A stretch of DNA of 64,000 nucleotides from Candidatus Micrarchaeota archaeon (GTDB lineage Archaea; Micrarchaeota; Micrarchaeia; Anstonellales; Bilamarchaeaceae), in contig JBFMEZ010000029.1 in the NCBI GenBank assembly GCA_040753215.1, positions 29,394-93,393 on the forward strand, written 5' to 3'. The notes under the pieces were generated by a model. It was not told where the DNA came from. It made no database searches and saw nothing but the letters and a program-made list of their open reading frames with translations. This document shows positions 33,271-64,000 of the stretch, in pieces. A program made the position numbers and the translations under genes. How positions within the stretch are numbered: the stretch's first letter is position 1; each line of letters begins with the position of its first letter.

Positions 33271-33334
33271 TTGCCATCACTGATTACAACACGCAAGCGC
33301 AATATTTATATTCTCGTGGTTACATAATTACCAC

Positions 33335-34063
33335 ATGATAAACAAAGAAGCCCTTGAAGCCCTGGGCCTCACAGAAAACGATTCACGAGTCTGCATCACT
33401 CTGCTCACCCACGGCCCCCAGAGGGTTGCGGATTTGGAGAGGATCGTAGGGATACACAGGAGGAACCTCTACGACTCGCTCAGCAGGCTGGAAAAAATGG
33501 AAGTTGTCAATTCTTTCATCCGTAATGGAGTTCGCTATTTTCAGATTGCAAGCATGGATTTGCTGAGCGACATGCTCAGGAAGAAAGAAGAGGAGATACA
33601 TGGGTTTCTTTCTGGAATAAAGAAGATTGAGAGGGAGTACAGGATCCCCGAGGTCCACATTCTCTCCGGCGAGAAGGGAGTAAAGATGCTGCTCGACGAC
33701 GAACTTAGGACCGGAAAACCAATATACGGAATAGCTTCTTCAGGATTCGAGAAAAGGGTATGGGATTATCTGGCCAGGACGCCACATAGGATTCTTGCTG
33801 CTGACCTCCCAGTGAAACTGGTCTACACCAAAAGCGATGTTGAAAACAGGAAAAAAGCGCTAAAATACGATTTCGTGGAAGTGCGCGTCGTTCCCGACGA
33901 ATACAAATCCTCGGTTGCGCTGGAGCTCTACGGAGACACTTCCTGCATAATACTAGAAAATATAATCATAAGAATAAGGGACAAGGAGGTAAACCATAAG
34001 TTTATGATGTTCTTCAACTCCCTCTGGAAGATGAGAAAAAGAACCCAAGCTCCTCTTGATTAG
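33335..34063 (+). CDS. TrmB-family transcriptional regulator (paralog 1 of 3)
   Basis: N-terminal TrmB wHTH (..LGLTENDSRVCITLLTHGPQRVADL..) plus C-terminal domain; GTGGTTACATAATTACCAC palindrome just upstream. Confidence 0.65.
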   Translation: MINKEALEALGLTENDSRVCITLLTHGPQRVADLERIVGIHRRNLYDSLSRLEKMEVVNSFIRNGVRYFQIASMDLLSDMLRKKEEEIHGFLSGIKKIEREYRIPEVHILSGEKGVKMLLDDELRTGKPIYGIASSGFEKRVWDYLARTPHRILAADLPVKLVYTKSDVENRKKALKYDFVEVRVVPDEYKSSVALELYGDTSCIILENIIIRIRDKEVNHKFMMFFNSLWKMRKRTQAPLD

Positions 34064-47264: not shown

Positions 47265-47326
47265 AACCCGCCGTACAGCGGCTCTACTAATATCTACCAA
47301 TTGCAGAGTATGTATAATTATGAATC
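47265..47326 (+). promoter_or_regulatory. duplicated promoter/5'-leader block, copy 2, driving aminotransferase-P1-P2 operon
   Basis: See 46324-46384. Confidence 0.55.
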
Positions 47327-48576
47327 ATAGTGCAAGATACATAAAGAGATCAAGCGCGGATATAATGGAAGTAGTTCGCGGATTTGATCGTTACCACAGA
47401 ATGTTCAGGGAGTATACACAAAGAGGTGGAAAGGTTGGAAGTTCTTTAGACCGGGGGGCATTCACCCGCCCTCACGAGGTATTGCCTGAAGAAGCACGTT
47501 TTCTTCTTGGTGAGGGGCGGAGGAGCGGATCTTTTGCATATGGTCCGGAAGCAGGAGATGACAAATTAAGAGAAAAAATAGCGGAGGTTGAAAATAGGCG
47601 CCATGGAACTTTCTATTCGCCAGATAACGTTGCTATGCTTCCAGGTGCTTGGTCAGGAATAGTATTTGCGATAGAAGAGATCCTGAATCTAAAAAATGGA
47701 AAGATGAATAAAGAAAAAATAGCAATTATAGGGCCAACTTTATACCTGATGTTTCAGCGCATTATCAGAGACTATGGCATCGAAGTAAATGCGTATGATT
47801 TTGTAGTCCCTGGGACAGAGCGCGTCCCAACAAGTATGGATGATATGGAGTGTGTCTTTGCCGATAGACCGAAAATGATTGTAATCACAAACCCAAACAA
47901 TCCGGATGGCAAATACTTTCCACCTGCTTTACTAAGAGAGGTTATTGAAAGGGCAGGCCAAGAAGGAATTTACATCATTATGGATGAGATTCAAAACTGT
48001 TTCCCCCGCCGTGCTCGTATAGGGTACAGTTCATGGATTCAAGCGCCAAACGTAGTCCGTATGGATTCTGCTTCAAAAGCGTATGCGCTTGCAGAATACA
48101 AGACCGGATGGATGATCGCAGAACCGAGGCTGCTTGGCGACAGAATGGATGGAATTATAAGTCGTATGAGCGGGATTATGGGTAATGCTCCAAGAGCCGC
48201 AAATACGGCGTTACTTTACTTGCTTAATAGGGAATTGGAAAGAATTGCGACAGGAGTAGACTATTTATCATCTGTTCATGCAAAATTAACCAGAAAAGAA
48301 GAATTTGTCCTGGCTCATTTGGCAGCCATGGACAACATCATAGAAATAATTTTGCCACACGCCTGCATCAACCTTACGGTGCAGGTTGCATTTGATGGGA
48401 CCGATATGGAGCTAGCGAAAATATTGATGGAGAACGGAACACTTCTGATGCCTGCTAGCGGATATGGCCATAGCATAAGTCCGCCCACCCTGCGCATCAC
48501 TTTTGCAGAAAGGCAAGAAAAAGTGGAGCATTCCATGGCTGTTTTAGAGCGTGTACTTGGAGGTTATGTTTCATGA
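47320..48576 (+). CDS. PLP-dependent aminotransferase (class I/II fold)
   Basis: 418 aa; AT-rich; ..DSASKAYALAEYKTGWM.. Lys region; ATGA overlap with next gene. Confidence 0.6.
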   Translation: MNHSARYIKRSSADIMEVVRGFDRYHRMFREYTQRGGKVGSSLDRGAFTRPHEVLPEEARFLLGEGRRSGSFAYGPEAGDDKLREKIAEVENRRHGTFYSPDNVAMLPGAWSGIVFAIEEILNLKNGKMNKEKIAIIGPTLYLMFQRIIRDYGIEVNAYDFVVPGTERVPTSMDDMECVFADRPKMIVITNPNNPDGKYFPPALLREVIERAGQEGIYIIMDEIQNCFPRRARIGYSSWIQAPNVVRMDSASKAYALAEYKTGWMIAEPRLLGDRMDGIISRMSGIMGNAPRAANTALLYLLNRELERIATGVDYLSSVHAKLTRKEEFVLAHLAAMDNIIEIILPHACINLTVQVAFDGTDMELAKILMENGTLLMPASGYGHSISPPTLRITFAERQEKVEHSMAVLERVLGGYVS

Positions 48577-50147
48577 GCGATATCCTTCCCTATGATATCC
48601 TGAACAAGGGCTGGAAAGCCACCTGCAAAATCCTCTTAGGCGAGGAAATAGGCGAGCTCAGCGATTACAGGGAATGGCTCTCGGAGTTCCTTCCTCCCAC
48701 CGGAAAAACCCATTCCCACCTCTCCGGAAAGGAAGTAACCCTCGCCATGGATGCCTACTGCCCAAAATCCAGGTTCATCTCTTCCGATGAAATAAAGGAA
48801 AAGAAGCTCGCCCCCCTCTCCATAGACCAGGTAAAGGACATAGATTCCATCGCAGAAGCAATCTCAGAAAGATGGGAATACACCGGAAACAGGGTCCTCG
48901 GCAATTCCTCTTCTGTAGATTCCTCCGACCTGGTAATGGATTCCCAGTTCGTCTCCGGCTCCACCAACATCCAGCAGTCCTCCTACGTTTATTCCTCTGC
49001 CCTCGCCCGCATGGGCAGCAAATACATCTACGGCTCCCACGGCTTCGCCCAGGGCGAGTTCCTCATCCGCCACTGCGCGGGCTTCAACCTCAAGCGCCAG
49101 TTCGAGACCCACTTCATAACCGACAGCAGTGACCTCTATTTCGCATTCAACTGCATAGGCTGCAGCGAGCTCCTCTTCTCCTTCTTCCAGCGCAACAAGC
49201 GCCATTGCATAGGAAATCTCCAGCTTCCCAAGGAGAAATATCTCTCCCTCAAGAAGAAGCTCCTGTCCGAAGTGGCCTCCGAGCTTAAGAGAAACAAGCG
49301 CTTCCCATCCCTTTTCCACCTGGTTCCGAACAGCAAGCCTCGCCATTCCCTTTCCATCCCGCAATCCAGGCCCAAAGAGGACATGCCCGCAATAGACAAA
49401 GCGTTCTCCTCCGCCTTCAAGGTCATTTTCAGAAAGGATGCGCAATCCGTATTCCCATACGAAAAATGGCTCTCCCGCCAGCTCCTCGGCATAAGCGAGA
49501 TAAAGTCCCCCTTCGGCCACAAGACCTGTTTCCCAGAGACCAAGGCAATGTTCCTCTTCTTCACCGCCCCCCGCAGCCGCATGGTCTCCCTTGCCGAAGG
49601 GATGGAACTCGGAAAGCGCCACCTCGAAGAGCCGCAGCTCTCCTCCCTTTCCAGCATAATAGATAATCTGGGTGAAATCGGCTATTTCACAGCCGAATTC
49701 CTGGACGGCCCGGTCACCAACGCCATAAGCACGCCCATCGCCTACTATTCCTCCAACGTCTACAAGGCGCTGGACGCAACCCATTCCGAATACTCGGGCC
49801 TCTCCTCCCAGGTGCTGAACTCAAAATACTGCTTCGGCGGCTTCCGCATATTGGAGTCCCAGTTCTGCCTCAACTGCTACAATTCCCTCAATCTTTCCCG
49901 TTGCCTGGAAGTGGACACTTCCGAGAAATGCTCCGACTCCCTCTTCTGCCACAACTCCGAAGGGCTCGCGGAATGCATGTTTTGCTTCAATCTTAAGGGG
50001 AAGAGGTATGCAATAGGCAATTCGCCCCTTCCGCCGCAGGAATATCTCAAGGTGAAGGATTCCCTTCTTTCCCAGATGGCCGATGAACTGGAGCGCAACC
50101 ACTTGCTCCCCTACGACATATTCAACATCGGCTGTGCAGGTGCATGA
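48573..50147 (+). CDS. Cys-containing internally duplicated repeat protein, family member P1 (unknown function)
   Basis: 524 aa; N-term WKATCKILLGEEIGEL..EWLSE; halves end in C.GCSE..FSFNxRxKRHxIGN..LPxxKY and CxN....C.MFCFNxKxKRYAIGNSxLP motifs; C-term DIFNIGC. Confidence 0.5.
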   Translation: MSDILPYDILNKGWKATCKILLGEEIGELSDYREWLSEFLPPTGKTHSHLSGKEVTLAMDAYCPKSRFISSDEIKEKKLAPLSIDQVKDIDSIAEAISERWEYTGNRVLGNSSSVDSSDLVMDSQFVSGSTNIQQSSYVYSSALARMGSKYIYGSHGFAQGEFLIRHCAGFNLKRQFETHFITDSSDLYFAFNCIGCSELLFSFFQRNKRHCIGNLQLPKEKYLSLKKKLLSEVASELKRNKRFPSLFHLVPNSKPRHSLSIPQSRPKEDMPAIDKAFSSAFKVIFRKDAQSVFPYEKWLSRQLLGISEIKSPFGHKTCFPETKAMFLFFTAPRSRMVSLAEGMELGKRHLEEPQLSSLSSIIDNLGEIGYFTAEFLDGPVTNAISTPIAYYSSNVYKALDATHSEYSGLSSQVLNSKYCFGGFRILESQFCLNCYNSLNLSRCLEVDTSEKCSDSLFCHNSEGLAECMFCFNLKGKRYAIGNSPLPPQEYLKVKDSLLSQMADELERNHLLPYDIFNIGCAGA

Positions 50148-50148
50148 T

Positions 50149-51726
50149 ATGGACACATACGAAGCCCTCAACCGCTCCTGGAAATCCCTCTGCCGCCTTC
50201 TTCTGGGCGAAGAGATAGGCGAGATGAAAGAATACGAGAAATGGCTCACCCAATACCTTGAGCCCATGCGCGTGGAGCGCTCTGCAATCTCAGGCAAGGA
50301 TGTATATGTAGCGGTTCCAGAATACTGCAAAGATGCAAAATTCATCTCCCTAGAAGACACTCAATCTTCCAAGCCCGCCCCCCTCTCCATCAACGAAATC
50401 AAGGACATAGACTCAATAATGGAATCCCTCCGCGAGCGCTTCCTCTACTCCGGCAACGTCATCCTTTCCAATTCCCGCGATGTTTCCCAGAGCACCAACA
50501 TCCAGAACTCCTTCCACGTGCTCCGCTCCAACTTCATCTGGGATTCCGAATACATTGGCTACTCCTCCATGGTCCGCGGCGGCAAGCATCTTATTGGAGT
50601 AAACAACGACGCCTACTCCTCATTCATGCTCAGCAGCATGGAAACCTACAAGAACAGCCGCTGCCTGGAGCTGTGGGAATCCTTCGACTGCACCGAATCC
50701 TATTTTGTGTTCGGCTCATGGAACTGCCAGAACATCCTTTTCTCCTTCAACCAGCGCAACAGGCGCAACGTAATCGGAAACATCGAGCTCCCGCGCGACA
50801 AATTCCTTTCCCTCAAGAGCAAGTTAATAGAAGAGATGCGCGATGAGCTGAAGCGCAACAAATCCCTGCCTTCTCTCTTTGAAATCGCATCTGCCAACCT
50901 GAGGAGATCGAAAATACCCGCCGGCTTCCATACTGAAGAGATGCAGGAAGGCACGGACAAGGGCATAATAGAGGACGCATTCCGCAAGACCACGAAAATA
51001 GTCTTCGGGAAAGAGCTGCAGGACATGGATGCCTATGGGGATTGGCTCCTGCGCCACGTGATAAAAACGAAACCCGCTGTTTCCGCAGCCACGGGCAGGC
51101 CCACCTCCCTGAGCTCACACGCCCCTTACAAATTCTATCCAAGGAACCGTCTCGTGAAGATGAATGAGGCAGTGAAGCTCGGCGAAATCCTCCATATGGA
51201 TGAATCTGACATCCACTCGCTCGATTCCCTCAAGGACTCCCTCTGGAAAATCGCGTTCTTCTGCTCCGAGATAATGCTCGGCGAAAACAAAAACCTGATT
51301 GGAGTGATGCTCGCCAACCAGTCCAGCAACTGCTACAATGGTTCGGTCTATTCCTATGATGAATACTGCGGCTTCTCCTTCTGGCCAAGGGACTCCAAAT
51401 ATATGTTCGGCTCATCTATGGCCTTCTCCTCCAATTTCTGCATCAACGCCTACAATTCCCTCAACCTCTCGCGCTGTTTTGAGGTGGACGGCTGCAGCAG
51501 CTCCTCCGACCTCTACTTCTCCCACAACTGCGAGAACGCGCAGGACGCGATGTTCTGCTTCAATTCCAAGAATCTTAAGCACTCGATAGGCAATTCCGCG
51601 CTCCCGCCCGATAAATACAAGTCCCTGAAATCCTCGCTCCTCTCCCAAATCTCAGACGAGCTTGAGAAGACCAAATCCCTCAGATGGGACATCTTCAACC
51701 TGGGCTGTCCAAAGGTGCCATCCTGA
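50149..51726 (+). CDS. Cys-containing repeat protein, family member P2
   Basis: ~525 aa; same architecture as P1; start overlapping P1 stop. Confidence 0.5.
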   Translation: MDTYEALNRSWKSLCRLLLGEEIGEMKEYEKWLTQYLEPMRVERSAISGKDVYVAVPEYCKDAKFISLEDTQSSKPAPLSINEIKDIDSIMESLRERFLYSGNVILSNSRDVSQSTNIQNSFHVLRSNFIWDSEYIGYSSMVRGGKHLIGVNNDAYSSFMLSSMETYKNSRCLELWESFDCTESYFVFGSWNCQNILFSFNQRNRRNVIGNIELPRDKFLSLKSKLIEEMRDELKRNKSLPSLFEIASANLRRSKIPAGFHTEEMQEGTDKGIIEDAFRKTTKIVFGKELQDMDAYGDWLLRHVIKTKPAVSAATGRPTSLSSHAPYKFYPRNRLVKMNEAVKLGEILHMDESDIHSLDSLKDSLWKIAFFCSEIMLGENKNLIGVMLANQSSNCYNGSVYSYDEYCGFSFWPRDSKYMFGSSMAFSSNFCINAYNSLNLSRCFEVDGCSSSSDLYFSHNCENAQDAMFCFNSKNLKHSIGNSALPPDKYKSLKSSLLSQISDELEKTKSLRWDIFNLGCPKVPS

Positions 51727-51744
51727 ACCCGCAAACAATGGTGT

Positions 51745-54188: not shown

Positions 54189-55193
54189 ATGGAAAATCAG
54201 CCCGTGAAGCTGGACAAAATAGACTACAAAATACTCGCGGAACTGGATTTTGACAGCCGCCTCCCCAGCTCAAAGATCGCTAAGAAGCTGAAGCTCTCAA
54301 GAAACATAGTTGATTACCGGATAAAGCAGCTGGTGGAGAAGGGCGTGATAATGGCGTTCAATACCTTCATTGACCCCGCGAAATTCAACCTAATTAGCTG
54401 GAAGGTATATGTTCGCTATCAGAATATGACTCCGGAGAAAGAGAAGGAACTTCTCCAATATCTGGAAAAGCACCCTAAAGTATGGTGGATAATAAGGTGC
54501 GCGGGCGCGTACGATGTGATGTTCTGCCTCCTTGCGGAAACCATCCATGATTTCTACCAGGAGATGCTCGGGTTCAATACCCTATTCGGCACTTATGTGG
54601 CGGAAACAGAGCTCACGAGCCACATAGACCCGGAGTTCTATACGCGAGGCTATCTGGGAAAGGAATCTGTTATTCCATCCAAGCCTTTCCTTGTAAAACC
54701 CACAAAAATGCAATTTGACGAGCTGGACATCAAGCTGTTTGATTTGCTGGGAAGAAACTGCAGGATGCCGATTACTGAAATGGCAAAGAAACTGGGTTCC
54801 ACTCCGCGAATAATCAAATACAAGATGGACAAGTGGGAAAAGGAAGAGGTCCTTACCTGGAACAGGATAATTTTGGATGCTTCCAAGCTGGGGAGGGAGT
54901 ATTACAAAACGCTGGTGAATTTTAAGGATATTACGCGTGAAAAGGAGAAAAAGTTCATCGGTTTCTGCAGGGTGCATCCCGACATCATCAATATCTCCCG
55001 GGCTGCTGGCCCATGGGACTTTGAATTTGAATGCGAGGTGGAGAGCTATCATAAGTATAATGAGCTGATGCAAGGAATGCGGGTGGCCTTCCCGGATATC
55101 ATAAAGCAATACCGAAGCCTGCTGATTTACGAGCAGCTGAAGTTTGAGAACAATTTCATAAGGTACGGGATGGAGAGCAGAAAGACCGCCTAA
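54189..55193 (+). CDS. tandem Lrp/AsnC-type regulator (two HTH+RAM modules)
   Basis: 334 aa; two ..DxxDxKILxxL..RxxxxEIAKKLGxSxxxVxxRIKxLxxxGVI.. HTH units; AT-rich. Confidence 0.6.
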   Translation: MENQPVKLDKIDYKILAELDFDSRLPSSKIAKKLKLSRNIVDYRIKQLVEKGVIMAFNTFIDPAKFNLISWKVYVRYQNMTPEKEKELLQYLEKHPKVWWIIRCAGAYDVMFCLLAETIHDFYQEMLGFNTLFGTYVAETELTSHIDPEFYTRGYLGKESVIPSKPFLVKPTKMQFDELDIKLFDLLGRNCRMPITEMAKKLGSTPRIIKYKMDKWEKEEVLTWNRIILDASKLGREYYKTLVNFKDITREKEKKFIGFCRVHPDIINISRAAGPWDFEFECEVESYHKYNELMQGMRVAFPDIIKQYRSLLIYEQLKFENNFIRYGMESRKTA

Positions 55194-56287: not shown

Positions 56288-58246
56288 CTAGCGCATCGCG
56301 TGATAATTCCCGAATATATCCTTCCTAGCATCATAAGCCAGCTTCCGGGGCTTGTCCGCATCCACATCTATTTTCTCCCCCGGCTCGTCAATCATCGGGT
56401 CAGGAAAGCCGGGCTTTTTGTCCGACGGGGGCTTCTCTTCAGGCCCGGCCCCTTTCCCTTGCGCTTGCCCTTCTCCCTCATCCTTAGTGGGCTCATGCAG
56501 CCCCCAGCTTTTCATGTCCACTATCCTCATCTTCATCGGGAGCATGTAATTCCTTCCGTCATACAGCCGCACAATGCACTCTCTCTGGTTGAGCCGTATG
56601 AACATCTCCTTCTTGGATTCTTCCAGCTCCGCCTGCGCGCGGTGCTTCTTGAAGTACTCTTCCAGCTTGATTTCCATCACCGAGCTCAGCATCGCGGCAT
56701 CCTGCCTGTTAAGCTTGAACGCAATCAGATTCCTGGTGTTCGACACTATCCCATCCAGCACCTCCTTGCTCAGCTGCCCAAGGTACTGGCACGAAAGGTA
56801 CGCATAAAGGTTGAATTTCCTCGTCTCCGAGAGTATGTCCCTCGTAACCCTCGTCTCCACTCTCGGGAACTCATCCACCACCAATATTGTGGGCTTGTCC
56901 ATCAGCTTGCCCGTAATCGCCAGTATGTACATCTGGTTGATTATCGCCCCTGCAAGGAAACTAATCATCCTCCTCCCGAAGAAGTGCGGGTCGAAGCTCA
57001 CCACCGTAATCCTGTTCTTCTCCAGAAGCTCCGCAAGCCTCTCCAGCTTCTTCTCCTTCCCCAGGTACAATTGGTATTCCCCTATGAAATTCAGTATGGG
57101 CAGTATCGCGGAGTTGAAGTGGTGTATGTAAATATCATTATACTCCTCGTCAAAGAACCTCTTCACCTCCTCGTTGTCGCACATGCTCACGAACTCCGCC
57201 TTCGCCGTCGCATCAGTGAGCAGCGCGCTTACGTTCATCAAATCTAGCTTGTCTATTGAGCTGAGCAGATGCACCGCGTAGAAAAGCACCCTCTCCGAAT
57301 ATTTGTTCTCCTGCCCTATAGATGATGCAATCAGTTGCGAAATCAATTGCGTAAGCATAGGCGTCTTCTGCCCGCCCACATCCAGCGGCTCTATGTAATT
57401 CTTTACAAAATCCACCATCTTCGTCCCCTTGAAGGTTTTGGTAAACTCCCCATGCGGGTCGATCACTATTATCCTGGCCCCATCCTTGTACTTCGCCTCA
57501 ATCGCCTTCAGCAGCACGTAGAGCGCCTTGGTCTTCCCGGAGCCCGAAGTCCCCGCAACCAGCGTATGCTGCATCGGGTCGTAATTATCCACGCCCATCG
57601 TCACCCCGCTCTCCTCAAACACCGGGAACCTTGAGCTAGTATGTATCCTTTTCGGAATCGGGTCCAGCACCTCTATGTATATGGAGGAATTCTCCTCCAG
57701 GTTTATCCTGAAGAACTTCTCCGGGTCGGTCACCAGCACGCTCCTCTTCCTGCCCTTCTCGTCAATCGCATCCCCTGCTGCCACGAACCCGCCCAGCACC
57801 TTGCTCAGGTCCATCGCCAGCTCCTCCACATTCTCCTTCAGCATGAAATCCAGGAAACCATACGCCCCCCCGTTGATCTTGTAGAACTTTGAGAGGACGG
57901 CCGCCTTCCCCTTCACTTGTTCCATCTCCCCCAGCTCTGCGAACCTGAACGGAAACACCAGCGCCGCCATGTCCTGCAGCCCCTTCTTCTCCCTTATATA
58001 GAATTTCACGGTGTTGTTCTTCCTCCGCACAATGAGCCTAAACGCATTGAGCGAAAGCACCCCCGAGAAATCCAGGAAGCCGAAAAGCGGAAGCCTCGCC
58101 TTCACCAGCTGCTCGAAGAACGCCCTCATGTCCTCCTCATCCACCTTCTCCGAGTAGAGGTGCATCTCGCGGACAGCCAGCCTCCTGGCTGCCTCCTCCT
58201 CCCTGCTCAGGGTAATCTTCATTCCTGTTGGCAAGCGCAATTCCAT
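56288..58246 (-). CDS. HerA/FtsK/VirB4-superfamily P-loop ATPase (DUF87-like)
   Basis: 652 aa; AGTSGSGKTKAL Walker A ~aa 235, ILVVDEF Walker B; disordered acidic C-terminus. Confidence 0.6.
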   Translation of the reverse strand: MELRLPTGMKITLSREEEAARRLAVREMHLYSEKVDEEDMRAFFEQLVKARLPLFGFLDFSGVLSLNAFRLIVRRKNNTVKFYIREKKGLQDMAALVFPFRFAELGEMEQVKGKAAVLSKFYKINGGAYGFLDFMLKENVEELAMDLSKVLGGFVAAGDAIDEKGRKRSVLVTDPEKFFRINLEENSSIYIEVLDPIPKRIHTSSRFPVFEESGVTMGVDNYDPMQHTLVAGTSGSGKTKALYVLLKAIEAKYKDGARIIVIDPHGEFTKTFKGTKMVDFVKNYIEPLDVGGQKTPMLTQLISQLIASSIGQENKYSERVLFYAVHLLSSIDKLDLMNVSALLTDATAKAEFVSMCDNEEVKRFFDEEYNDIYIHHFNSAILPILNFIGEYQLYLGKEKKLERLAELLEKNRITVVSFDPHFFGRRMISFLAGAIINQMYILAITGKLMDKPTILVVDEFPRVETRVTRDILSETRKFNLYAYLSCQYLGQLSKEVLDGIVSNTRNLIAFKLNRQDAAMLSSVMEIKLEEYFKKHRAQAELEESKKEMFIRLNQRECIVRLYDGRNYMLPMKMRIVDMKSWGLHEPTKDEGEGQAQGKGAGPEEKPPSDKKPGFPDPMIDEPGEKIDVDADKPRKLAYDARKDIFGNYHAMR

Positions 58247-58480
58247 TATCTCACGTTCATATACTTATTGAAACGGGGATATATTCCTAGTCCCGCTCCA
58301 TAGCGGGTTTCACCATCCTCCAGCTTTCCGTCGTTGCCCTTCCCATGCCAATTCCGCGCGTTCCTTCTATTTAAGAATTCACTACTATGCGCGTATACTA
58401 GCAGTAACGAAAAAGGAGGTGCGCCCAGAGAACCCATTACCACCATGCTTTCCATCCAGCGATTTTCGTATTAATACAAT

Positions 58481-58501
58481 TGTGGTATCGTAGCGATACC
58501 A
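58481..58501. promoter_or_regulatory. perfect palindrome GTGGTATCG-TAG-CGATACCAC upstream of TrmB paralog 2 (candidate operator)
   Basis: 37 nt upstream of ATG 58538; GTGGT..ACCAC arms also flank 33305-33325 palindrome upstream of TrmB paralog 1. Confidence 0.45.
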
Positions 58502-58537
58502 CTACATATTAAAACAGCCCCGCCCCACTCATTACCC

Positions 58538-59308
58538 ATGAAAATCAGCGATTTGTTCAGGGAGATAGGCTTCTCGGAGGGTGAAGGCAAGGTATACCAG
58601 GCCATCCTCACGCACCTTTCCCCGACCCTCCAGTCCATCCACGAAGAGACCGGGATAGAGAGAAGGAACGTCTACGACATCGTAAACAAGCTCATCTCAA
58701 AGGGGCTGGTCACCTACCAGATGGAGAACAGGAAGAAGACCTACCACACGACCCACCCAAGCAAAATACTGAACTACCTAGAAGAGCGGGAAGGTGAGAT
58801 AACGAATGCAAAAAACATGGTGAATGCAGAGCTCGGCCAGCTTGTGAATATGTACGAGGGCAGCAAGGAGGAGTTCCACACGGAGATTTACAGGGGGAAC
58901 GAGGGCATGAAGGCTGTTTTTGAGGATATACTGAATTATAAGCACTACTACCTTATAGGAGGGAATTTTGGCGTTATGAGATTCCTTGGCGAAGCATTCT
59001 TGAACAGATGGCATGCAAAAAGGGAGAAAAAGAAAATCTGGATTCACGACATAATAAGGTACCAGAGCTTTATTGGCGAAGGGGCGATTCCTGAATTTAC
59101 CAAGAACCTAAAATACTGGGAATACAAGATGCTCCCCAAGGAATTCTGGTCCCCCCACGTGATTTTCATATACGGGGACAAGGTTGTGAATGTATTTTGG
59201 GGCGAACAAAGCTTCGCATTCCTCATCCAGAACGAGGGCATCGCGAAGAGCTATATGGACTATTTCAACTATCTGTGGAAAACCCTGCCTAGCCCCAAAA
59301 GGCGATGA
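58538..59308 (+). CDS. TrmB-family transcriptional regulator (paralog 2)
   Basis: 256 aa; N-terminal TrmB wHTH; stop 2 nt before P3 start. Confidence 0.65.
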   Translation: MKISDLFREIGFSEGEGKVYQAILTHLSPTLQSIHEETGIERRNVYDIVNKLISKGLVTYQMENRKKTYHTTHPSKILNYLEEREGEITNAKNMVNAELGQLVNMYEGSKEEFHTEIYRGNEGMKAVFEDILNYKHYYLIGGNFGVMRFLGEAFLNRWHAKREKKKIWIHDIIRYQSFIGEGAIPEFTKNLKYWEYKMLPKEFWSPHVIFIYGDKVVNVFWGEQSFAFLIQNEGIAKSYMDYFNYLWKTLPSPKRR

Positions 59309-59309
59309 C

Positions 59310-60857
59310 ATGCACTCCGCAATATACGAACGCCTCAACACAAAATGGAAAGAGGCATGCAAAATACTGTTTAGAGAGGAGGTCGGCAACCTCCGCGTAT
59401 ATGAAGGCTGGCTTTCCGAATGCATTGAGCCTGTATCCGTACAAAAATCCCAAATTCCAGGCAAAGAAGTAGTAGCGGTGGGCGATTACCGCGGCTCAAA
59501 ACTCATCTCCTTCGCAGATATCGACTTCTTCAGAAAATACCCTCCTCTCAGCATAAATGACATAAAGGACATAGACAGCATAATCCGCGCGGCGCGGGAA
59601 AGGGCCGAATATGCGGGCAACATAGTGCTCGGCAACTCCTCAAATGCCGAATCCAGCACCGGGATAGAAGACTGCAGCAACATCCTTTCCTCCCACACAT
59701 ACAACTCTTCCCAGGATGTGGCCTTCTCCACGCTGGGCAGGGTAGATGAGTCAGTCTTCGGCTGCGTCCTTGTCGGGCAATCCAGCTTTTCCATAAAGAC
59801 CGTGCTAGGACGGCACCTGGCCCGCACCCTCGAATCTTCCTATGCGCTCGAATGCTCCGACATATATTTCTCCCACCAGATGCGCGGCTGCTCGGAATGC
59901 ATGTTTTCCTTCAACCTCCGCGGCAAGAGGCACGTAATAGGCAATGTCCAGCTTCCCCAGGACAAATACCAATCCATAAAGAAAAAGCTCCTCCCCGAGC
60001 TTGCGGATGAGCTGAAGAAAAACAAGAGGCTCAGGCCGTTGAGGGATTTCATCCCCAGGGAGCCGCCCCAAGCCGCGCGTCCCGCCCCCCAAAGCCCCGT
60101 GCACATGCCTCAGGCGGCCCCGGACCTTAAGATGGTGGAGGACGCCTTCCAAAAAACAACCGATCTCATATTCGGCAGGAAGCTCCAGGGCATCTCCTCC
60201 TTCGGCCCCTACCTCTCCAGGCACACCCGGTGCGACCCCAAGGCCCGCGGGATGGCGCTCAACAAGCTGTTCCCAGAAGGCAAAAGAACGGTAAGCCTTG
60301 AAGAGCACGGCTCATATTCGCACCCGCAGGCCTGGCCCGAAGCCCTGGATATCGGCTCTTTCGGCCTTTCCAACGTCGGAACGCTCATAAGCCCAATCGC
60401 CTTTTTCTGCCCGGACATCCAGGAGCAATCCTCCAACATGGTCGAGTGCTCCAATTTCACCAATTCCTACCATTGCTTCCACTCCAGCAATTTATACTTC
60501 GTAAAATTCGCCGCTTATTCCTTCTGGCCCAGGGACTGCGAACACGTTTTCGGCTGCGACTCCCTCCGCACCTCCTCCTTCTGCATAAACTGCTACAACT
60601 CGTTCAAGCTTAGCCGCTGTTTTGAAGTGGATACCTCCCAGGACTGCACCGGCTCCTATTTCCTGCATAACTGCGAGAACGTCCACGACTCGATGTTCTG
60701 CTTTAACGTAAAGAACAAGAGGTATGCGATAGGAAATGCAGAAGTTGGCAAGGAGAAATTCTTCGAAGCAAAGAAGGCCCTTCAACTCTGGCTGCTTTCC
60801 CAGTTGGAGAAGAAGGGCTCCGTGGATTTGGACATTTACAATATCAATAAGAAATAA
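59310..60857 (+). CDS. Cys-containing repeat protein, family member P3
   Basis: ~515 aa; same motifs (CSECMFSFNLRGKRHVIGN; CENVHDSMFCFNVKNKRYAIGN). Confidence 0.5.
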   Translation: MHSAIYERLNTKWKEACKILFREEVGNLRVYEGWLSECIEPVSVQKSQIPGKEVVAVGDYRGSKLISFADIDFFRKYPPLSINDIKDIDSIIRAARERAEYAGNIVLGNSSNAESSTGIEDCSNILSSHTYNSSQDVAFSTLGRVDESVFGCVLVGQSSFSIKTVLGRHLARTLESSYALECSDIYFSHQMRGCSECMFSFNLRGKRHVIGNVQLPQDKYQSIKKKLLPELADELKKNKRLRPLRDFIPREPPQAARPAPQSPVHMPQAAPDLKMVEDAFQKTTDLIFGRKLQGISSFGPYLSRHTRCDPKARGMALNKLFPEGKRTVSLEEHGSYSHPQAWPEALDIGSFGLSNVGTLISPIAFFCPDIQEQSSNMVECSNFTNSYHCFHSSNLYFVKFAAYSFWPRDCEHVFGCDSLRTSSFCINCYNSFKLSRCFEVDTSQDCTGSYFLHNCENVHDSMFCFNVKNKRYAIGNAEVGKEKFFEAKKALQLWLLSQLEKKGSVDLDIYNINKK

Positions 60858-60872
60858 TCGCAGCAGCTTTAA

Positions 60873-60903
60873 AAATTCACTACTATATAATCATAATAGT
60901 GAA
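60873..60903. promoter_or_regulatory. palindrome TTCACTACTATATAATCATAATAGTGAA overlapping GTG start of TrmB paralog 3 (TATA box + candidate operator)
   Basis: AATTCACTACTAT also at 58372-58384 upstream of TrmB paralog 2. Confidence 0.45.
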
Positions 60904-61651
60904 AGAAATAGAAGAAATCCTGAAGAAAGTGGGCCTAACCACGCAGGAATCCCGCGTATACCTTGCGCTCCTTGAGCTCCAAGAGGCGCAGACCGGCCGC
61001 CTCTGCTCCTTCACCGGCATAGCCAGCTCCAACATCTACAACATCCTCCGCTCCCTCATGCAAAAGGGCCTCGCAAGCTACCGTGTGCAGAACAATACCC
61101 GCGTCTTTCTCCCCGCCTCACCAGATGCGCTGAACGAGCTTTTCCTTGAAAAGCAGAAGAAACTTGATGAGGAACGCCGCGAGGTCACAGCGCTCGTCTC
61201 CAGCCTGAAGAAGAGAAAGGTTGAGACCGAACCCTACTCCAATTACAAATACTACGAAGGAATTTCTGGCGTAAAATCCATGTGGCATGAAATCAACGGC
61301 TTCATGTCCCCGGACTCAACCGCCCTTGTATACACCTCCCGCCGCGCAGCCTATGAAAAATTGATAAGCTTCTACGACGTACACCATAAAATGCGCCGTG
61401 AAAAGGGGATAAAGGAGCTTATGGTTTTCCCGGACGAGGACAGGGAACTCGGCCACAAGCGACGCAACAGATATACGGAAGTCCGCTTCAGCAGCATAAA
61501 AAGCGACGCAGAATGGGGCATTATAAGGGACCGCCTCTACATCCAGTACATCACCGGAAAAGTCCCCCGCGCATTCCTCATAAAAGACGAGACCTTCGCC
61601 AACACCTTCCGCGAGGTCTTCTCAAAGCTCTGGGAGCGTGCAAAGCCATGA
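60899..61651 (+). CDS. TrmB-family transcriptional regulator (paralog 3), GTG start
   Basis: 250 aa; ATGA overlap with P4. Confidence 0.65.
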   Translation: MKEIEEILKKVGLTTQESRVYLALLELQEAQTGRLCSFTGIASSNIYNILRSLMQKGLASYRVQNNTRVFLPASPDALNELFLEKQKKLDEERREVTALVSSLKKRKVETEPYSNYKYYEGISGVKSMWHEINGFMSPDSTALVYTSRRAAYEKLISFYDVHHKMRREKGIKELMVFPDEDRELGHKRRNRYTEVRFSSIKSDAEWGIIRDRLYIQYITGKVPRAFLIKDETFANTFREVFSKLWERAKP

Positions 61652-63234
61652 AAAGCAGGAGCCAATCCTCACAGGTATATGAACACCTGAACAAGAGTTG
61701 GAAGGATGCCTGCAAAATCCTGCTCAAGGAAGAGGTGGGCAATCTCAACGAATACGAGGGCTGGCTCTCCGAATGGCTTGAGCCCTCCCGAATGCGCAAA
61801 TCCCCCTCCGGAGAAGACGTCCTGACTGTTGGCGACTATTGCGATTCCGCCTCTTTCGTTCCATTTTCAGGAATCGACCTGATGAAAAAATACCCTCCCC
61901 TCAGCATAAACGAAATAAAAGACATTGATTCCATTCTCTCTGCCACACAGGAAAGAATCTATTACGCCGGCAACATAGTGCTCGGCAAATCCTCCAACGT
62001 GGAAGAGAGCACCGGCATAGAGGACTGCAACTTTGCCCTCCGCTCCCACTCATGCAATTCCTCCCAAGACATTGCCTTCTGCACCCAGATGAGGGAGGAC
62101 CGCTCTCTTTTCGGCTGCGTGATGTGTGGGGAGTCAAGCTTCACTATAAAATGCTACGGCAACTGGCGCACCGCCCGCTCCCTCCTCTCCAGCACTATCC
62201 ACGAATCCTCGGACATATACTTCTCCCACAAGCTCACCGGCTGCTCAGAATGCATGTTCTCATTCAACCTCCGCGCAAAGCACCACGCGATAGGGAACAC
62301 CCCTCTTCCCTCCGAAAAATACCTGCCATTAAAGCAGAAACTCCTCTCCGAACTCGCCGAAGAGCTTAGGAAGAAGAAAAGGCTCCCAAACCTTGTGGAT
62401 TTCTTTCCTCCTCAACCGTCCAAACCCAGCACACCAAAAACCATTCCTCTCCCCAGGAAAAATGAGGATTTCGAGCTTATAGAAGACGCCTTCCATACCA
62501 CCTCCGAGCTCCTCTTAGGAAAAAACACCCTCCATCTCAAGCCCCTATCCAATTACCTCTCCCGCCACGTCCGCGCCATCCAGAAGCTCCCATCCTGCGT
62601 TAGCGGAAAGGACGTCTTCCGCTGCAGCACCCGCTTTGACGACGTGGTTTCCAAATGCGGCAGGATGGTCCGCCTTGATGAATACGATTCCGTCTCCCAT
62701 CCGCAGGAACTCCCTCATGGGATGGAGAAGCTCTCCCTTTCCGGCATAACCCCGCTCATAAGCCCAGTAGCATACTACTGCCCCGAGGCGGCCGAGCAGT
62801 TTGAGAACGCGATTGAATGCAACGACATCTACTCCGCATACCATTGCTACCGCGCAAGCAAGGTCTACTTCACCAAGTTCACAGCATTCTCTTACTGGGC
62901 AAGGAACTGCGAATACACGTTCGGCTGCGACTCCCTGCGCACTTCTTCGTTCTGCATCCAGTGCCACAACTCCTTCAAGCTGAGCCGCTGTTTTGAGGTT
63001 GATACCTCACAGGACTGCACCGGCTCCTACTTCCTGCACAATTGCGAGAACGTGCATGACTCCATGTTTTGCTTCAATACCAAAAACAAAAGGTATGCAA
63101 TAGGCAATTCCGAGGTTGGAAAAGAGAACTTCCTCAAAGCCAAATCCGCCCTCCAGGCCTGGCTCCTTTCCCAGCTCGAAAGGAGCGGCTCCGTAGAGCT
63201 GGACATATACAATATTGGCTGCCGCAAACCCTGA
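61648..63234 (+). CDS. Cys-containing repeat protein, family member P4
   Basis: ~528 aa; closest to P3 (C-terminal 130 aa nearly identical). Confidence 0.5.
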   Translation: MKSRSQSSQVYEHLNKSWKDACKILLKEEVGNLNEYEGWLSEWLEPSRMRKSPSGEDVLTVGDYCDSASFVPFSGIDLMKKYPPLSINEIKDIDSILSATQERIYYAGNIVLGKSSNVEESTGIEDCNFALRSHSCNSSQDIAFCTQMREDRSLFGCVMCGESSFTIKCYGNWRTARSLLSSTIHESSDIYFSHKLTGCSECMFSFNLRAKHHAIGNTPLPSEKYLPLKQKLLSELAEELRKKKRLPNLVDFFPPQPSKPSTPKTIPLPRKNEDFELIEDAFHTTSELLLGKNTLHLKPLSNYLSRHVRAIQKLPSCVSGKDVFRCSTRFDDVVSKCGRMVRLDEYDSVSHPQELPHGMEKLSLSGITPLISPVAYYCPEAAEQFENAIECNDIYSAYHCYRASKVYFTKFTAFSYWARNCEYTFGCDSLRTSSFCIQCHNSFKLSRCFEVDTSQDCTGSYFLHNCENVHDSMFCFNTKNKRYAIGNSEVGKENFLKAKSALQAWLLSQLERSGSVELDIYNIGCRKP

Positions 63235-63292
63235 AATTGCCCACAAGGCAACATTTATAAGCACTTTTAACCATTATATTACCACTGATAAC

Positions 63293-64000
63293 ATGCCTTC
63301 CCCAGCCGTAAGGACTCCCATATTTCAGGTGCCCGAGCTCTGCGGCCGCTACGGCGGCGCGGATGTACTCGTTGCCAGCCTCGGGGATGCGAACCGCACC
63401 GCAAAGGGCTTCCGGAACAGGGAGCTGATAAGGAGCCTCGGAACCACGTTGCCCGGGGCAAAGCACGTTGTTTTTGTCCAGATAACTACCGGCAACTCCG
63501 GATACGACCTCGGCATGGAGGCGAGGGAGGAGCAGAAGCGGAGCGGCAGGCGGATAGACGTGGTGAACATAGTCCGCAGGGGCATCCCAAAGGCGGTAAA
63601 AGAGAAGCTCGCCGCATGCTCCTTCGTGCACGAGATGGACCTCAGCCGCCTGGTAACCATGGAGGAGATGGGGAAAATCGCTAAAGAAATCACGGGATAC
63701 GAAGGCCCGGAGCACGAAATACTCGGGGTTGAGAAATACAACCTGAGCGAGGGTTACCGCGCACTGGTGAGGCAGATGGCAGGGGATGGCCTAAAGCCCA
63801 CTCATATATTCCTCCCCGCGGGAGGCGGGGAGTTGCTCACGGAAATTGCTGCAGAGGCAGAGAGGGTATGGGGGATAGGCGGTGCGCCCAAAATAGTTGG
63901 GGTCACCATACCGCAGAACGTCCTTGTGCACAAGGAAGATTTCATAAAAAGGCCGGGAAAGAGCATCGCAGACAAGCTCGTTTGCGGCTATTCGAGATTC
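63293..64000 (+). CDS. fold-type II PLP-dependent enzyme (Trp-synthase-beta superfamily), 3'-partial
   Basis: ITTGNSG and LPAGGGELL glycine loops; runs off window end. Confidence 0.45.
   Translation, partial: MPSPAVRTPIFQVPELCGRYGGADVLVASLGDANRTAKGFRNRELIRSLGTTLPGAKHVVFVQITTGNSGYDLGMEAREEQKRSGRRIDVVNIVRRGIPKAVKEKLAACSFVHEMDLSRLVTMEEMGKIAKEITGYEGPEHEILGVEKYNLSEGYRALVRQMAGDGLKPTHIFLPAGGGELLTEIAAEAERVWGIGGAPKIVGVTIPQNVLVHKEDFIKRPGKSIADKLVCGYSRF

What the first reader, a model, noticed from the sequence alone, without database searches (positions are those of the whole stretch)
58372..63234. Two consecutive TrmB-regulator + P-family gene pairs with palindromic candidate operators
TrmB paralog 2 -> P3 and TrmB paralog 3 -> P4 repeat the same two-gene unit. 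The second pair is joined by ATGA coupling and the first by a 2-nt gap. Each TrmB gene is preceded by AATTCACTACTAT and a palindrome (GTGGTATCG-TAG-CGATACCAC, or TTCACTACTATATAATCATAATAGTGAA overlapping the GTG start). This suggests autoregulated modules duplicated in tandem. A third TrmB paralog lies at 33335, with a GTGGT..ACCAC palindrome upstream.
Basis: seen in the sequence. Interest (0 to 1): 0.6.

Follow-up and report, generated by a model that had tools for sequence, protein, structure and literature searches.

The report
Two self-regulated TrmB–P gene operons
Two neighbouring genes for DNA-binding regulators in an uncultured Micrarchaeota archaeon each carry, in their own promoter, a palindromic binding site that is conserved in distant relatives, so they almost certainly control themselves and the unknown-function "P" gene attached to each. 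This is ordinary archaeal gene regulation, attached to an uncharacterised protein family.

Summary
trmB2 (58538-59308) is followed by P3 (59310-60857) after a 1-nt gap, not 2. trmB3 (60899-61651) is followed by P4 (61648-63234) with an ATGA overlap. Both palindromes are real, and both are conserved operators.

- **TrmB2-type site.** TGTGGTAT-N7-ATACCACT (58481-58503) recurs beside the TATA box of all 22 TrmB2-family loci examined.
- **TrmB3-type site.** CTACTAY-N6-RTANTAG (60880-60899) lies between the TATA box and the start codon in every TrmB3-family locus examined across DPANN archaea.
- **The shared AATTCACTACTAT.** It is the left half of this TrmB3-type site. The copy at 58382-58401 is a complete second site upstream of trmB2. 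It sits where two close relatives, which have only the trmB3-P4 pair, carry their single trmB3 promoter.

The idea of a module duplicated in tandem is not supported. The two regulators are 20% identical and belong to separate old families whose other members rarely sit next to P genes. Only P3 and P4 are each other's closest paralogues (56%).

The regulators have the TrmBL2 build and lack the sugar-binding subdomain. P is a Micrarchaeota-restricted, internally duplicated family found in tandem arrays, with no recognisable domain or fold. P genes often lie downstream of varied transcription-factor genes.

Verdict: a new member of a known kind, of moderate interest.

The parts
58370..58377 (+). 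TATA-like box (TTTAAGAA) of the distal TrmB3-type promoter copy upstream of trmB2
   Evidence: Read. It aligns with TTTAAAAA of the trmB3 promoter in the window and in L079/L080. The spacing to the operator is the same 4 nt (ttca) as at 60868-60875.
58382..58401 (+). Complete TrmB3-type operator, copy A: CTACTAT-gcgcgt-ATACTAG
   Evidence: One of only two matches in the window to CTACTAYNNNNNNRTANTAG (0.07 expected). Against copy C the half-sites match 13/14 and the spacer 0/6. It is the positional orthologue of the trmB3 operator of L079/L080.
58469..58476 (+). TATA-like box (TATTAATA) 4-5 nt upstream of the TrmB2-type operator
   Evidence: It corresponds to the conserved TATTTAATA that precedes the palindrome in TrmB2-family loci.
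58481..58503 (+). TrmB2-type operator: TGTGGTATcgtagcgATACCACT (perfect palindrome)
   Evidence: Outer half-sites GTGGTAT/ATACCAC score 11-14 of 14 in all 22 TrmB2-family loci, while the central bases and flanks vary.
58507..58514 (+). Second TATA-like box (ATATTAAA) downstream of the operator, 24-31 nt before the trmB2 ATG
   Evidence: Read. The eight TrmB2-family loci whose palindrome lies 25-35 nt from the ATG all have a TATA-like box at this place. Which of the two boxes is used was not determined.
58538..59308 (+). trmB2: TrmB-family winged-helix regulator, 256 aa
   Evidence: Pfam PF01978, E 4.8e-14. 88 homologues, mostly Micrarchaeota.
59310..60857 (+). P3: P-family protein, 515 aa, 1 nt after the trmB2 stop codon
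   Evidence: Its closest relative anywhere is P4, at 56%. No Pfam, NCBIfam or PADLOC hit.
60868..60875 (+). TATA box (TTTAAAAA) of the trmB3 promoter, beginning 10 nt after the P3 stop codon
   Evidence: Conserved in L079/L080. An equivalent box (tttaaata / ataaatat) is present in L109-L113.
60880..60899 (+). TrmB3-type operator, copy C: CTACTAT-ataatc-ATAATAG; its last base is the G of the GTG start codon
   Evidence: Conserved as CTACTAY-N5/6-RTAGTAG, ending 0-6 nt before the start codon, in L079, L080 and L109-L113.
60899..61651 (+). trmB3: TrmB-family regulator, 250 aa, TrmBL2-like architecture
   Evidence: Pfam PF01978. AF2 model pLDDT 91.8. Full-length Foldseek match to TrmBL2 5BQT/5BPD, E 1e-15. 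180 homologues across DPANN.
61648..63234 (+). P4: P-family protein, 528 aa; its start overlaps the trmB3 stop codon (ATGA)
   Evidence: Orthologues at 80-82% identity follow the trmB3 orthologues in L079/L080 with the same overlap.
33316..33334 (+). Imperfect palindrome GTGGTTACATAATTACCAC between a TATA-like box (33303-33313) and the ATG of the third TrmB paralogue
   Evidence: GTGGTG-N8-CACCAC sites lie at the same place before other Micrarchaeota TrmB-like genes.
33335..34063 (+). trmB1: third TrmB-like paralogue, 242 aa, not followed by a P gene
48573..51726 (+). P1 (48573-50147) and P2 (50149-51726): the other two P-family genes of the window, downstream of an aminotransferase gene and not of a regulator gene

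Best explanation
The region holds two adjacent two-gene operons in a Micrarchaeota genome. Each consists of a TrmB-family regulator gene followed by a tightly coupled P-family gene of unknown function.

THE REGULATORS. Each has the TrmBL2 architecture: a winged helix, a long dimerisation helix and one C-terminal domain, with no sugar-binding subdomain. They belong to two different, old regulator families, and each family has its own palindromic operator in its own promoter.
- The TrmB3-type operator CTACTAT-N6-ATA(A/C)TAG starts 4 nt after the TATA box and ends at the start codon of a leaderless transcript.
- The TrmB2-type operator TGTGGTAT-N7-ATACCACT sits directly after one TATA-like box and directly before another.

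INFERRED MECHANISM. A regulator dimer bound to its operator covers the transcription start region or the BRE/TATA region and blocks recruitment of TFB or RNA polymerase. The regulator therefore represses its own operon, and with it the P gene that follows. Release would depend on an unknown, probably non-sugar, signal.

THE SECOND TrmB3-TYPE SITE. A complete TATA box plus TrmB3-type operator lies 137 nt upstream of trmB2. TrmB3 may therefore also control trmB2-P3.

ORIGIN. The arrangement arose by rearrangement at the trmB3 promoter. Either a trmB2-P3 segment was inserted there, or an old duplication of promoter-trmB3-P was followed by replacement of the first trmB3. It is not a simple tandem duplication of one regulator-P unit.

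WHAT IS SHOWN AND WHAT IS INFERRED.
- Shown: gene order, family membership, conservation and position of the sites, and the single pair in relatives.
- Inferred: binding, the sign of regulation, co-transcription, and cross-regulation.
For: GENES AND COUPLING.

TrmB2-TYPE SITE.
- Present in all 22 non-redundant TrmB2-family loci with 11-14 of 14 half-site matches.
- Always 4-6 nt after a TATTTAATA-like box.
- In 14 loci it ends 1-14 nt before the ATG.
- In about 1 Mb of fetched loci the pattern falls upstream of TrmB2-family genes in 20 of 22 matching loci. The other two matches are probably chance: one lies in a tRNA-synthetase gene, the other in a stretch with no identified gene.

TrmB3-TYPE SITE.
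- Present upstream of 8 of the 9 TrmB3-family genes compared outside the window (50-90% protein identity). The ninth, the second paralogue on L112, carries an N5-spaced variant that the fixed N6 pattern does not match.
- Absent from the 78 P-family loci.
- Exactly two sites in the 64-kb window, against 0.07 expected.

COPY A VERSUS COPY C: half-sites 13/14 identical, spacer 0/6. This is the pattern expected for selection on protein contacts.

RELATIVES: L079 and L080 have one trmB3-P4 pair between the same ATPase and PALP genes. Window 58230-58401 aligns with their ATPase-trmB3 intergenic region up to and including the operator.

REGULATOR FAMILIES: TrmB2 and TrmB3 are 20% identical, while each has 50-70% relatives elsewhere.

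ARCHITECTURE: AF2 model at pLDDT 91.8 and a full-length match to TrmBL2.

PRECEDENT (PMC4158304).
- TrmB-family sites are palindromes: TACT-N3-AGTA, TACT-N7-8-GAGTA and TATCAC-N5-GTGATA.
[quoted passage not shown] - Autoregulation has been proposed for the TrmBL1 homologue Tgr.
- The TrmB3-type site contains the same TACT...AGTA half-sites.

OTHER LINEAGES: divergently oriented TrmB-like genes share a 69-104-nt intergenic region, holding a palindrome, with a P gene (L024, L032, L041, L054, L098).
Against: - No binding, transcript or expression data exist. The organism is an uncultured MAG.
- For trmB2 in this window the operator lies 35 nt from the ATG, with a second TATA-like box in between. 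Activation rather than repression cannot be excluded.
- The TrmB3-type consensus was built partly from the loci on which it was then counted. With a consensus from L109-L113 alone, window copy C has one mismatch.
- Copy A could be an unused relic.
- TrmBL2, the closest structural relative, is itself a largely sequence-unspecific chromatin protein.
- Co-transcription of the P genes is inferred only from the 1-nt gap and the 4-nt overlap.
Confidence: 0.72

Rival explanations
1. One reading: one autoregulated TrmB-P module was duplicated in tandem, so both units and their upstream elements descend from a single ancestral unit.
For: - P3 and P4 are each other's closest paralogues (56%).
- Both units begin with TTTAA(G/A)AATTCACTACTAT.
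- Weak residual similarity to the first trmB3 codons follows copy A (19 of 34 positions against L079, read). This fits a variant in which promoter-trmB3-P was duplicated and the first trmB3 was later replaced by trmB2.
Against: - TrmB2 and TrmB3 share only 20% identity, and each is 50-70% identical to proteins in other genomes and phyla. They diverged long before P3 and P4.
- trmB2 brings its own family-specific promoter and operator.
- Orthologues of trmB2 at 56-72% identity are not followed by P.
- The relatives L079 and L080 have a single pair.
Confidence: 0.15
2. The upstream copy at 58370-58401 is only a non-functional scar of the rearrangement. It would be a duplicated target, or the leftover promoter of a lost trmB3 copy, and would play no part in regulating trmB2-P3.
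For: - No ORF follows it. The GTG start is lost (TAGCAG instead of TAGTGA).
- trmB2 has its own promoter about 100 nt further on.
- The 19/20 identity of the TATA box plus left arm with copy C could reflect a recent short duplication.
Against: - The right half-site ATACTAG is intact at the correct 6-nt spacing, although the spacer is 0/6 identical to copy C.
- The chance of a match to RTANTAG at one fixed position is about 5e-4.
- The flanking intergenic DNA has diverged much more from L079/L080 than the TATA box and half-sites have.
Confidence: 0.35
3. The regulator and the P protein form a functional pair. P would be a sensor, cofactor or antagonist of the adjacent transcription factor, and this would explain why P genes sit next to regulator genes.
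For: - Regulator genes of three different families (HTH_10, double Lrp/AsnC, TrmB) are the upstream neighbour of P genes in 28-32 of 82 cases, against 6-7 of 76 downstream neighbours (Fisher p = 7e-5 to 1e-5).
- There is translational coupling in the window and in L079/L080.
Against: - The partners belong to three unrelated regulator families.
- Most members of the TrmB2 and TrmB3 families have no P neighbour.
- Most P genes follow another P gene or an unrelated gene.
- The loci are not phylogenetically independent.
- Local regulation of P arrays by whichever regulator lies upstream explains the same data more simply.
Confidence: 0.12
4. The palindromes act as RNA or DNA hairpins, for example transcript stem-loops or terminators of the upstream genes, rather than as protein-binding sites.
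For: - The site at 58482-58502 would form a perfect 9-bp stem.
- The 60880 site lies only 23 nt after the P3 stop codon.
Against: - Across relatives the arm sequences themselves are conserved. They do not covary to keep pairing, and several loci have non-complementary arm changes (L079, L080, L082).
- The position is fixed relative to the TATA box and the start codon, not to an upstream gene end.
- There is no Rfam match and no T-run of the kind used for archaeal termination.
Confidence: 0.04

Closest known systems
TrmB / TrmBL1 (Tgr) regulators of Thermococcales and TrmB of Halobacterium
   Same: - N-terminal TrmB winged helix (PF01978).
[quoted passage not shown]
- The TrmB3-type site carries the same TACT...AGTA half-sites as TACT-N3-AGTA and TACT-N7-8-GAGTA.
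- Autoregulation is proposed for Tgr (PMC4158304).
   Different: - Only 250-256 aa long.
- No hit to the C-terminal sugar-binding region, and scores far below the NCBIfam equivalog cut-offs.
- Different spacing (TACT-N10-AGTA).
- The TrmB2-type site has a different half-site (GTGGTAT).
- The target genes are not sugar transporters or glycolytic genes but an uncharacterised P gene.
TrmBL2 (P. furiosus PF0496 / T. kodakarensis TK0471; PDB 5BPD, 5BQT, 5BOX)
   Same: - Same overall architecture.
- Full-length structural match of the TrmB3 model (E 1e-15, TM about 0.6, about 267 aligned columns).
- Lacks the sugar-binding subdomain (PMC4158304).
   Different: - Sequence identity is about 20%.
- TrmBL2 is an abundant chromatin protein that binds coding and intergenic DNA with little specificity.
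- The window's regulators have a single, sharply conserved palindrome in their own promoter.
Classical autoregulated archaeal repressors (Lrs14, Lrp-like LrpA)
   Same: The operator overlaps the regulator's own promoter between the TATA box and the start, giving negative autoregulation (cited in PMC4158304).
   Different: A different protein family, and those genes are not coupled to a downstream cargo gene.
P family: no known relative
   Same: Nothing comparable was found. It resembles other lineage-specific expanded families only in its tandem-array organisation.
   Different: - No Pfam, NCBIfam, PADLOC or PDB sequence hit.
- No Foldseek hit in PDB or BFVD.

Membership tests
TrmB family of archaeal transcription regulators (PF01978) | N-terminal winged helix-turn-helix of the TrmB type | tested here: met
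   PF01978 at E 4.8e-14 (TrmB2) and 9.8e-13 (TrmB3), both above the gathering score. PDB sequence hits to TrmB 3QPH and to TrmBL2 over residues about 3-95.
TrmB family of archaeal transcription regulators (PF01978) | Long amphipathic (coiled-coil) helix after the winged helix, for dimerisation | tested here: met
   The AF2 model of TrmB3 has helix 76-104 directly after the wing. It superposes on TrmBL2. Dimerisation itself was not tested.
Sugar-sensing TrmB / TrmBL1 subgroup | C-terminal effector domain with the second, sugar-binding subdomain (residues about 305-326 in Pfu TrmB) | tested here: not met
   The proteins are 250-256 aa. No Pfam hit beyond the HTH. NCBIfam TrmB/TrmBL1 equivalog scores are 16-36 bits against cut-offs of 500-650. 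The fold matches TrmBL2, which lacks this subdomain (PMC4158304).
TrmBL2 subgroup | Full-length architecture: wHTH, helix and a single C-terminal domain of about 260 aa in total | tested here: met
   Foldseek E 1e-15, with 266-270 aligned columns to 5BQT/5BPD.
TrmBL2 subgroup | Orthology, or sequence similarity reaching the curated cut-off | tested here: not met
   NF041141 scores 25 bits against a cut-off of 530, and only over residues 7-92. Identity is about 20%.
Autoregulated palindrome-binding archaeal repressor | Conserved palindromic site in the regulator's own promoter, at or next to the TATA box or transcription start | tested here: met
   Phylogenetic footprints in 22 TrmB2-family loci and 9 TrmB3-family loci. 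Two sites in the window against 0.07 expected.
Autoregulated palindrome-binding archaeal repressor | Specific binding of the protein to the site, and an effect on transcription | not testable with these tools
   Needs EMSA or footprinting and in vitro transcription.
   - A co-directional, tightly coupled TrmB-P pair is seen only in the window, L079 and L080.
- L099 has a P-gene fragment 135 nt downstream of a TrmB2-family gene, and L098 has a divergent P gene. These are the only two P neighbours among the 24 metagenome loci and 4 contigs examined for the TrmB2 family.
- None of the five distant TrmB3-family loci examined has a P neighbour.
- Of 82 upstream neighbours of P genes, 8-10 are TrmB-like, and most of those are divergent.

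The most novel reading that the evidence does not exclude
The P family could be the effector of an undescribed Micrarchaeota-specific system. Its features:
- about 520 aa, made of two copies of a module of about 260 aa;
- cysteine-rich C-terminal repeats;
- no detectable domain or fold relative;
- hundreds of members, in tandem arrays of up to nine genes, including stand-alone half-size forms.

P genes are recurrently wired to a local transcription factor (TrmB, HTH_10 or double Lrp/AsnC) and are often flanked by a HerA/VirB4-like ATPase. The two TrmB-P operons here would then be one instance of a modular 'regulator + variable P paralogue' design, with cross-regulation between modules through the second TrmB3-type operator.
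Probability: 0.2. Interest if true: 0.65.

Novelty: new member of a known kind. Interest (0 to 1): 0.38.

Why it matters
- **Operator motifs.** The work gives two sharply defined, testable operator motifs for regulator families of uncultured DPANN archaea, where no regulatory sites are known: TGTGGTAT-N7-ATACCACT and CTACTAY-N6-RTAGTAG. The TrmB3-type family and its site are conserved across Micrarchaeota, Nanoarchaeota and Woesearchaeota. The motif can therefore be used to predict a regulon in many genomes.
- **Promoter rewiring.** The locus shows how a promoter with its operator can be reused when genes are rearranged. A second complete TrmB3-type promoter now sits in front of a different regulator's operon.
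- **The P family.** The regulation itself is ordinary. The P family is the real unknown: it is large, restricted to one lineage, and has no recognisable fold. These two regulated copies offer a handle for asking when P genes are expressed.

Tried and rejected
P FAMILY: ALL SEARCHES NEGATIVE
- Pfam on P3/P4, and on 27 family members at E <= 1.
- NCBIfam and PADLOC.
- PDB by sequence and by profile.
- Foldseek of the AF2 model (pLDDT 78.7, pTM 0.83) against PDB and BFVD, with no hit at E < 1.

OTHER NEGATIVE CHECKS
- Rfam on 58000-64000: nothing.
- Gene conversion between P3 and P4. I suspected it from the near-identical C-terminal 100 aa and rejected it, because third-position identity in identical codons is 0.5-0.7 there as elsewhere. 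The similarity reflects purifying selection.
- A wider regulon in the window. No further TrmB3-type site was found. The only other GTGGT-N8-12-ACCAC site, at 21649, is GC-rich, does not lie upstream of any TrmB-family gene, and was not followed up.
- TrmB2-type pattern matches in P loci L013 and L075 are probably chance. The L075 match lies inside a tRNA-synthetase gene, and the L013 match lies in a stretch with no identified gene.
- The small ORFs in 58400-58480 and the out-of-frame ATGA ORF at 59305-59472 have no support.
- A literature search found no description of the P family or of DPANN TrmB operators.

A LIMITATION OF MY OWN METHOD
- My first TrmB HMM, built from three sequences, undercounted regulators next to P genes. 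A Pfam scan of all neighbours corrected this.

Full report
**1. What is there**

The window comes from a Candidatus Micrarchaeota metagenome-assembled genome. P4 is 100% identical to an NCBI protein of such a MAG, on a 108-kb contig.

On the plus strand, 58372-63234 contains four genes:
- trmB2, 58538-59308 (256 aa)
- P3, 59310-60857 (515 aa)
- trmB3, 60899 (GTG start)-61651 (250 aa)
- P4, 61648-63234 (528 aa)

Both regulators hit Pfam TrmB PF01978 above its threshold. P3 and P4 belong to a paralogous family that also includes P1 (48573-50147) and P2 (50149-51726).

The trmB3/P4 ATGA overlap is real. The trmB2-P3 gap is 1 nt, not 2. The ATGA at 59305 is out of frame with P3.

The 13-mer AATTCACTACTAT occurs exactly twice in the window, at 58376 and 60874. 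The 21-nt perfect palindrome sits at 58482-58502, where 0.01 would be expected by chance. The palindrome with 11-nt arms sits at 60876-60903. The third paralogue, trmB1 (33335-34063), is preceded by GTGGTTACATAATTACCAC, which abuts its ATG.

**2. The trmB2 palindrome is a conserved operator**

TrmB2 has 88 homologues, mostly from Micrarchaeota. I collected their upstream regions from four contigs and 24 metagenome loci.

- All 22 non-redundant loci, at 38-72% protein identity, carry a 21-nt palindrome.
- Its outer half-sites match GTGGTAT/ATACCAC at 11-14 of 14 positions.
- The seven central bases and the flanks vary.
- A TATTTAATA-type TATA box lies 4-6 nt upstream in every case.

In 14 loci the palindrome ends 1-14 nt before the ATG, which places it between the TATA box and a leaderless start. 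In eight loci, including the window, it lies 25-35 nt from the ATG, with a second TATA-like box in between. For this subgroup the sign of regulation is uncertain.

In about 1 Mb of fetched loci, the pattern GTGGYR-N9-YRCCAC falls upstream of TrmB2-family genes in 20 of the 22 matching loci. The other two matches are probably chance: one lies inside a tRNA-synthetase gene, the other in a stretch with no identified gene.

**3. The trmB3 palindrome is a conserved operator, and the 13-mer is half of it**

TrmB3 belongs to a family found across DPANN at 50-65% identity. Its named members are from Nanoarchaeota, Woesearchaeota and Micrarchaeota.

Six genes on five distant loci were examined (L109-L113; L112 carries two paralogues), together with the two close relatives L079 and L080. 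In all of them the promoter reads: TATA box, about 4-12 nt, CTACTAY-N6(5)-RTAGTAG, then 0-6 nt to the start codon.

The site contains TACT...AGTA. These are the half-sites known for Pyrococcus and Thermococcus TrmB (TACT-N3-AGTA) and for Halobacterium TrmB (TACT-N7-8-GAGTA) (PMC4158304).

The consensus CTACTAYNNNNNNRTANTAG matches the 64-kb window exactly twice, against 0.07 expected:
- 60880-60899 (CTACTAT ataatc ATAATAG), whose last base is the G of the GTG start;
- 58382-58401 (CTACTAT gcgcgt ATACTAG).

In the fetched loci it occurs only in front of TrmB3-family genes, and never in the 78 P-family loci.

The copy upstream of trmB2 is a complete site with its own TATA-like box (TTTAAGAA, 58370-58377).

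Between the two window copies the half-sites agree at 13 of 14 positions and the spacer at 0 of 6. That is the pattern expected when protein contacts are under selection.

**4. How the arrangement arose**

Two close relatives carry only one pair: L079 and L080, whose P4 orthologues are 80-82% identical and whose TrmB3 orthologues are 88-90% identical. In L080 the order is HerA/VirB4-like ATPase (minus strand), then trmB3-P4, then a PALP gene. The same flanking genes occur in the window.

Window 58230-58401 aligns with their ATPase-trmB3 intergenic region through the TATA box and the operator. Weak similarity to the first trmB3 codons follows. Copy A is therefore the positional orthologue of the single trmB3 promoter. 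The segment from about 58402 to 60867 carries trmB2 with its own promoter, plus P3, and lies between two copies of that promoter.

TrmB2 and TrmB3 are only 20% identical and belong to different old families. They are not duplicates of each other.

P3's closest relative in a database of 5.8 billion proteins is P4, at 56%. There is no sign of gene conversion.

Two histories fit:
- a trmB2-P3 segment was inserted into the trmB3 promoter;
- an old duplication of promoter-trmB3-P was followed by replacement of the first trmB3 by trmB2, with L079/L080 later losing the first unit by recombination between the promoter repeats.

I cannot decide between them.

**5. The pair is not a conserved unit, but P genes tend to follow regulator genes**

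Orthologues of trmB2 at 56-72% identity are followed by unrelated genes. Across the 24 metagenome loci and four contigs examined, only L098 (divergent) and L099 (a P-gene fragment 135 nt downstream) have a P neighbour. None of the five distant TrmB3-family loci examined has one.

In the other direction, I found 207 P-family ORFs, four of them in the window and the rest in 78 genome loci.
- 95 of them follow another P gene.
- Of 82 non-P upstream neighbours, 28-32 are transcription factors of three families: HTH_10 (9-11), double Lrp/AsnC (11) and TrmB (8-10).
- Of 76 downstream neighbours, 6-7 are transcription factors.
- Fisher p is 7e-5 to 1e-5. The loci are not phylogenetically independent.

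Apart from the window's two co-directional pairs, the TrmB-like upstream neighbours in these 78 genome loci are all divergent from the P gene. They share with it a 76-215-nt intergenic region that holds a palindrome of the type GTGGTG-N8-CACCAC, TGGTGAYA..TRTCACCA or CCCCCTAGGGGG.

So local regulators in front of P genes are common. The tightly coupled, co-directional TrmB-to-P arrangement is confined to this lineage.

**6. The proteins**

The AF2 model of TrmB3 is confident (pLDDT 91.8). It consists of a winged helix, a long helix (residues 76-104) and one alpha/beta domain. It matches TrmBL2 (5BQT, 5BPD) over its full length at E 1e-15.

TrmBL2-type proteins lack the roughly 70 residues that carry the sugar-binding site (PMC4158304). 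The C-terminal effector region has no Pfam hit, and the NCBIfam TrmB/TrmBL1/TrmBL2 scores lie far below their cut-offs. A sugar response is therefore not predicted, and the signal is unknown.

P is made of two copies of a module of about 260 aa (hhalign probability 100%, E 1e-56). It has 2080 representatives at the 50%-identity clustering level. All named members are Micrarchaeota.

**7. Mechanism and verdict**

The most likely reading is two autoregulated, leaderless operons.
- Each regulator dimer binds its family-specific palindrome at its own promoter. Binding blocks TFB or RNA polymerase and so sets the level of itself and of the coupled P gene.
- The second TrmB3-type promoter and operator upstream of trmB2 may put trmB2-P3 under TrmB3 control as well.
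- Binding, the sign of regulation, co-transcription and cross-regulation are inferences.

This is a new member of a known kind: autoregulated TrmB-family regulators with palindromic operators. The tandem-module idea is not.

The novel residue is the P family itself and its recurrent association with local regulators and with HerA/VirB4-like ATPases.

Noticed in passing
L046:1-13569, L058:1249-12245, L050:93-8326, L074:4442-13785, L042:881-8841: P-family genes form tandem arrays of up to nine genes. Full-length genes (about 520-540 aa) are mixed with runs of stand-alone half-size genes (about 255-270 aa), often with overlapping stop and start codons.
   Followed up: partly
window 61648-63234 (P4) and alignment A2: P proteins are an internal tandem duplication of a module of about 260 aa (hhalign N-half against C-half: probability 100%, E 1e-56, 21% identity). 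The conserved core is ...C..C.F.FN.K.KR.AIGN..(L/V)(P/G)..K(Y/F)...K..L. No fold relative was found for the AF2 model.
   Followed up: partly
window 56288-58246 (-), and e.g. L009:7603-10185, L028:7600-10254, L062:5207-7906: Homologues of the window's HerA/VirB4-like ATPase (DUF87 + TrwB_AAD_bind) are the immediate neighbour of P genes in 18 of 158 flanking positions. 14 of these are downstream, most of them convergent with the P gene. In L080 the ATPase has P genes on both sides.
   Followed up: partly
window 54189-55193 (+) and 44090-44824 (+): The window also encodes a double Lrp/AsnC-type regulator (334 aa) and an HTH_10 regulator (244 aa). Their homologues are recurrent upstream neighbours of P genes in other Micrarchaeota: 11 loci (mostly divergent) and 9-11 loci (mostly co-directional) respectively. 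The window's 44-63 kb stretch looks like a P-gene island.
   Followed up: partly
window 47320-54056: P1 and P2 follow a PLP-dependent aminotransferase gene (47320-48576), with an ATGA overlap and then a 1-nt gap. They are convergent with a B12-binding radical SAM gene (51745-53292, -) and a SAM methyltransferase gene (53289-54056, -).
   Followed up: no
L080:3204-4790 and L080:2-346: The P4 orthologue in L080 is split into a 390-aa ORF plus a 56-aa fragment, which means a pseudogene or an assembly error. A further P C-terminal fragment lies at the contig start.
   Followed up: no
L079:143-952, L080:2398-3207: The trmB3 orthologues are called as 269 aa in the source data, starting at an ATG upstream of the TATA box and operator. 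Alignment with 250-aa family members and the position of the operator indicate that the GTG 19 codons downstream is the real start.
   Followed up: partly
L112:2440-2500 and L112:4435-4495; also L109-L111, L113, about 45-60 nt upstream of the start: Several TrmB3-family promoters carry a second TACT/AGTA-type palindrome (for example CTACTGAATAGTAG and TTACTACATAGTAGTAA) about 50 nt upstream of the main operator. In L112, two paralogues flank periplasmic-binding-protein genes.
   Followed up: no
L032:2929-3023, L041:5891-5985: A TrmB-like gene (255 aa, about 30% identical to TrmB3) lies divergent from a P gene. The palindrome CCCCCTAGGGGG sits between two TATA-like boxes in the 95-nt intergenic region. 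This is a third operator type next to a P gene.
   Followed up: no
window 21649-21669: GTGGTGCTCCAGGGGGACCAC is the only other GTGGT-N8-12-ACCAC match in the window. Its centre is GC-rich and it does not lie upstream of any TrmB-family gene. It is probably chance.
   Followed up: no
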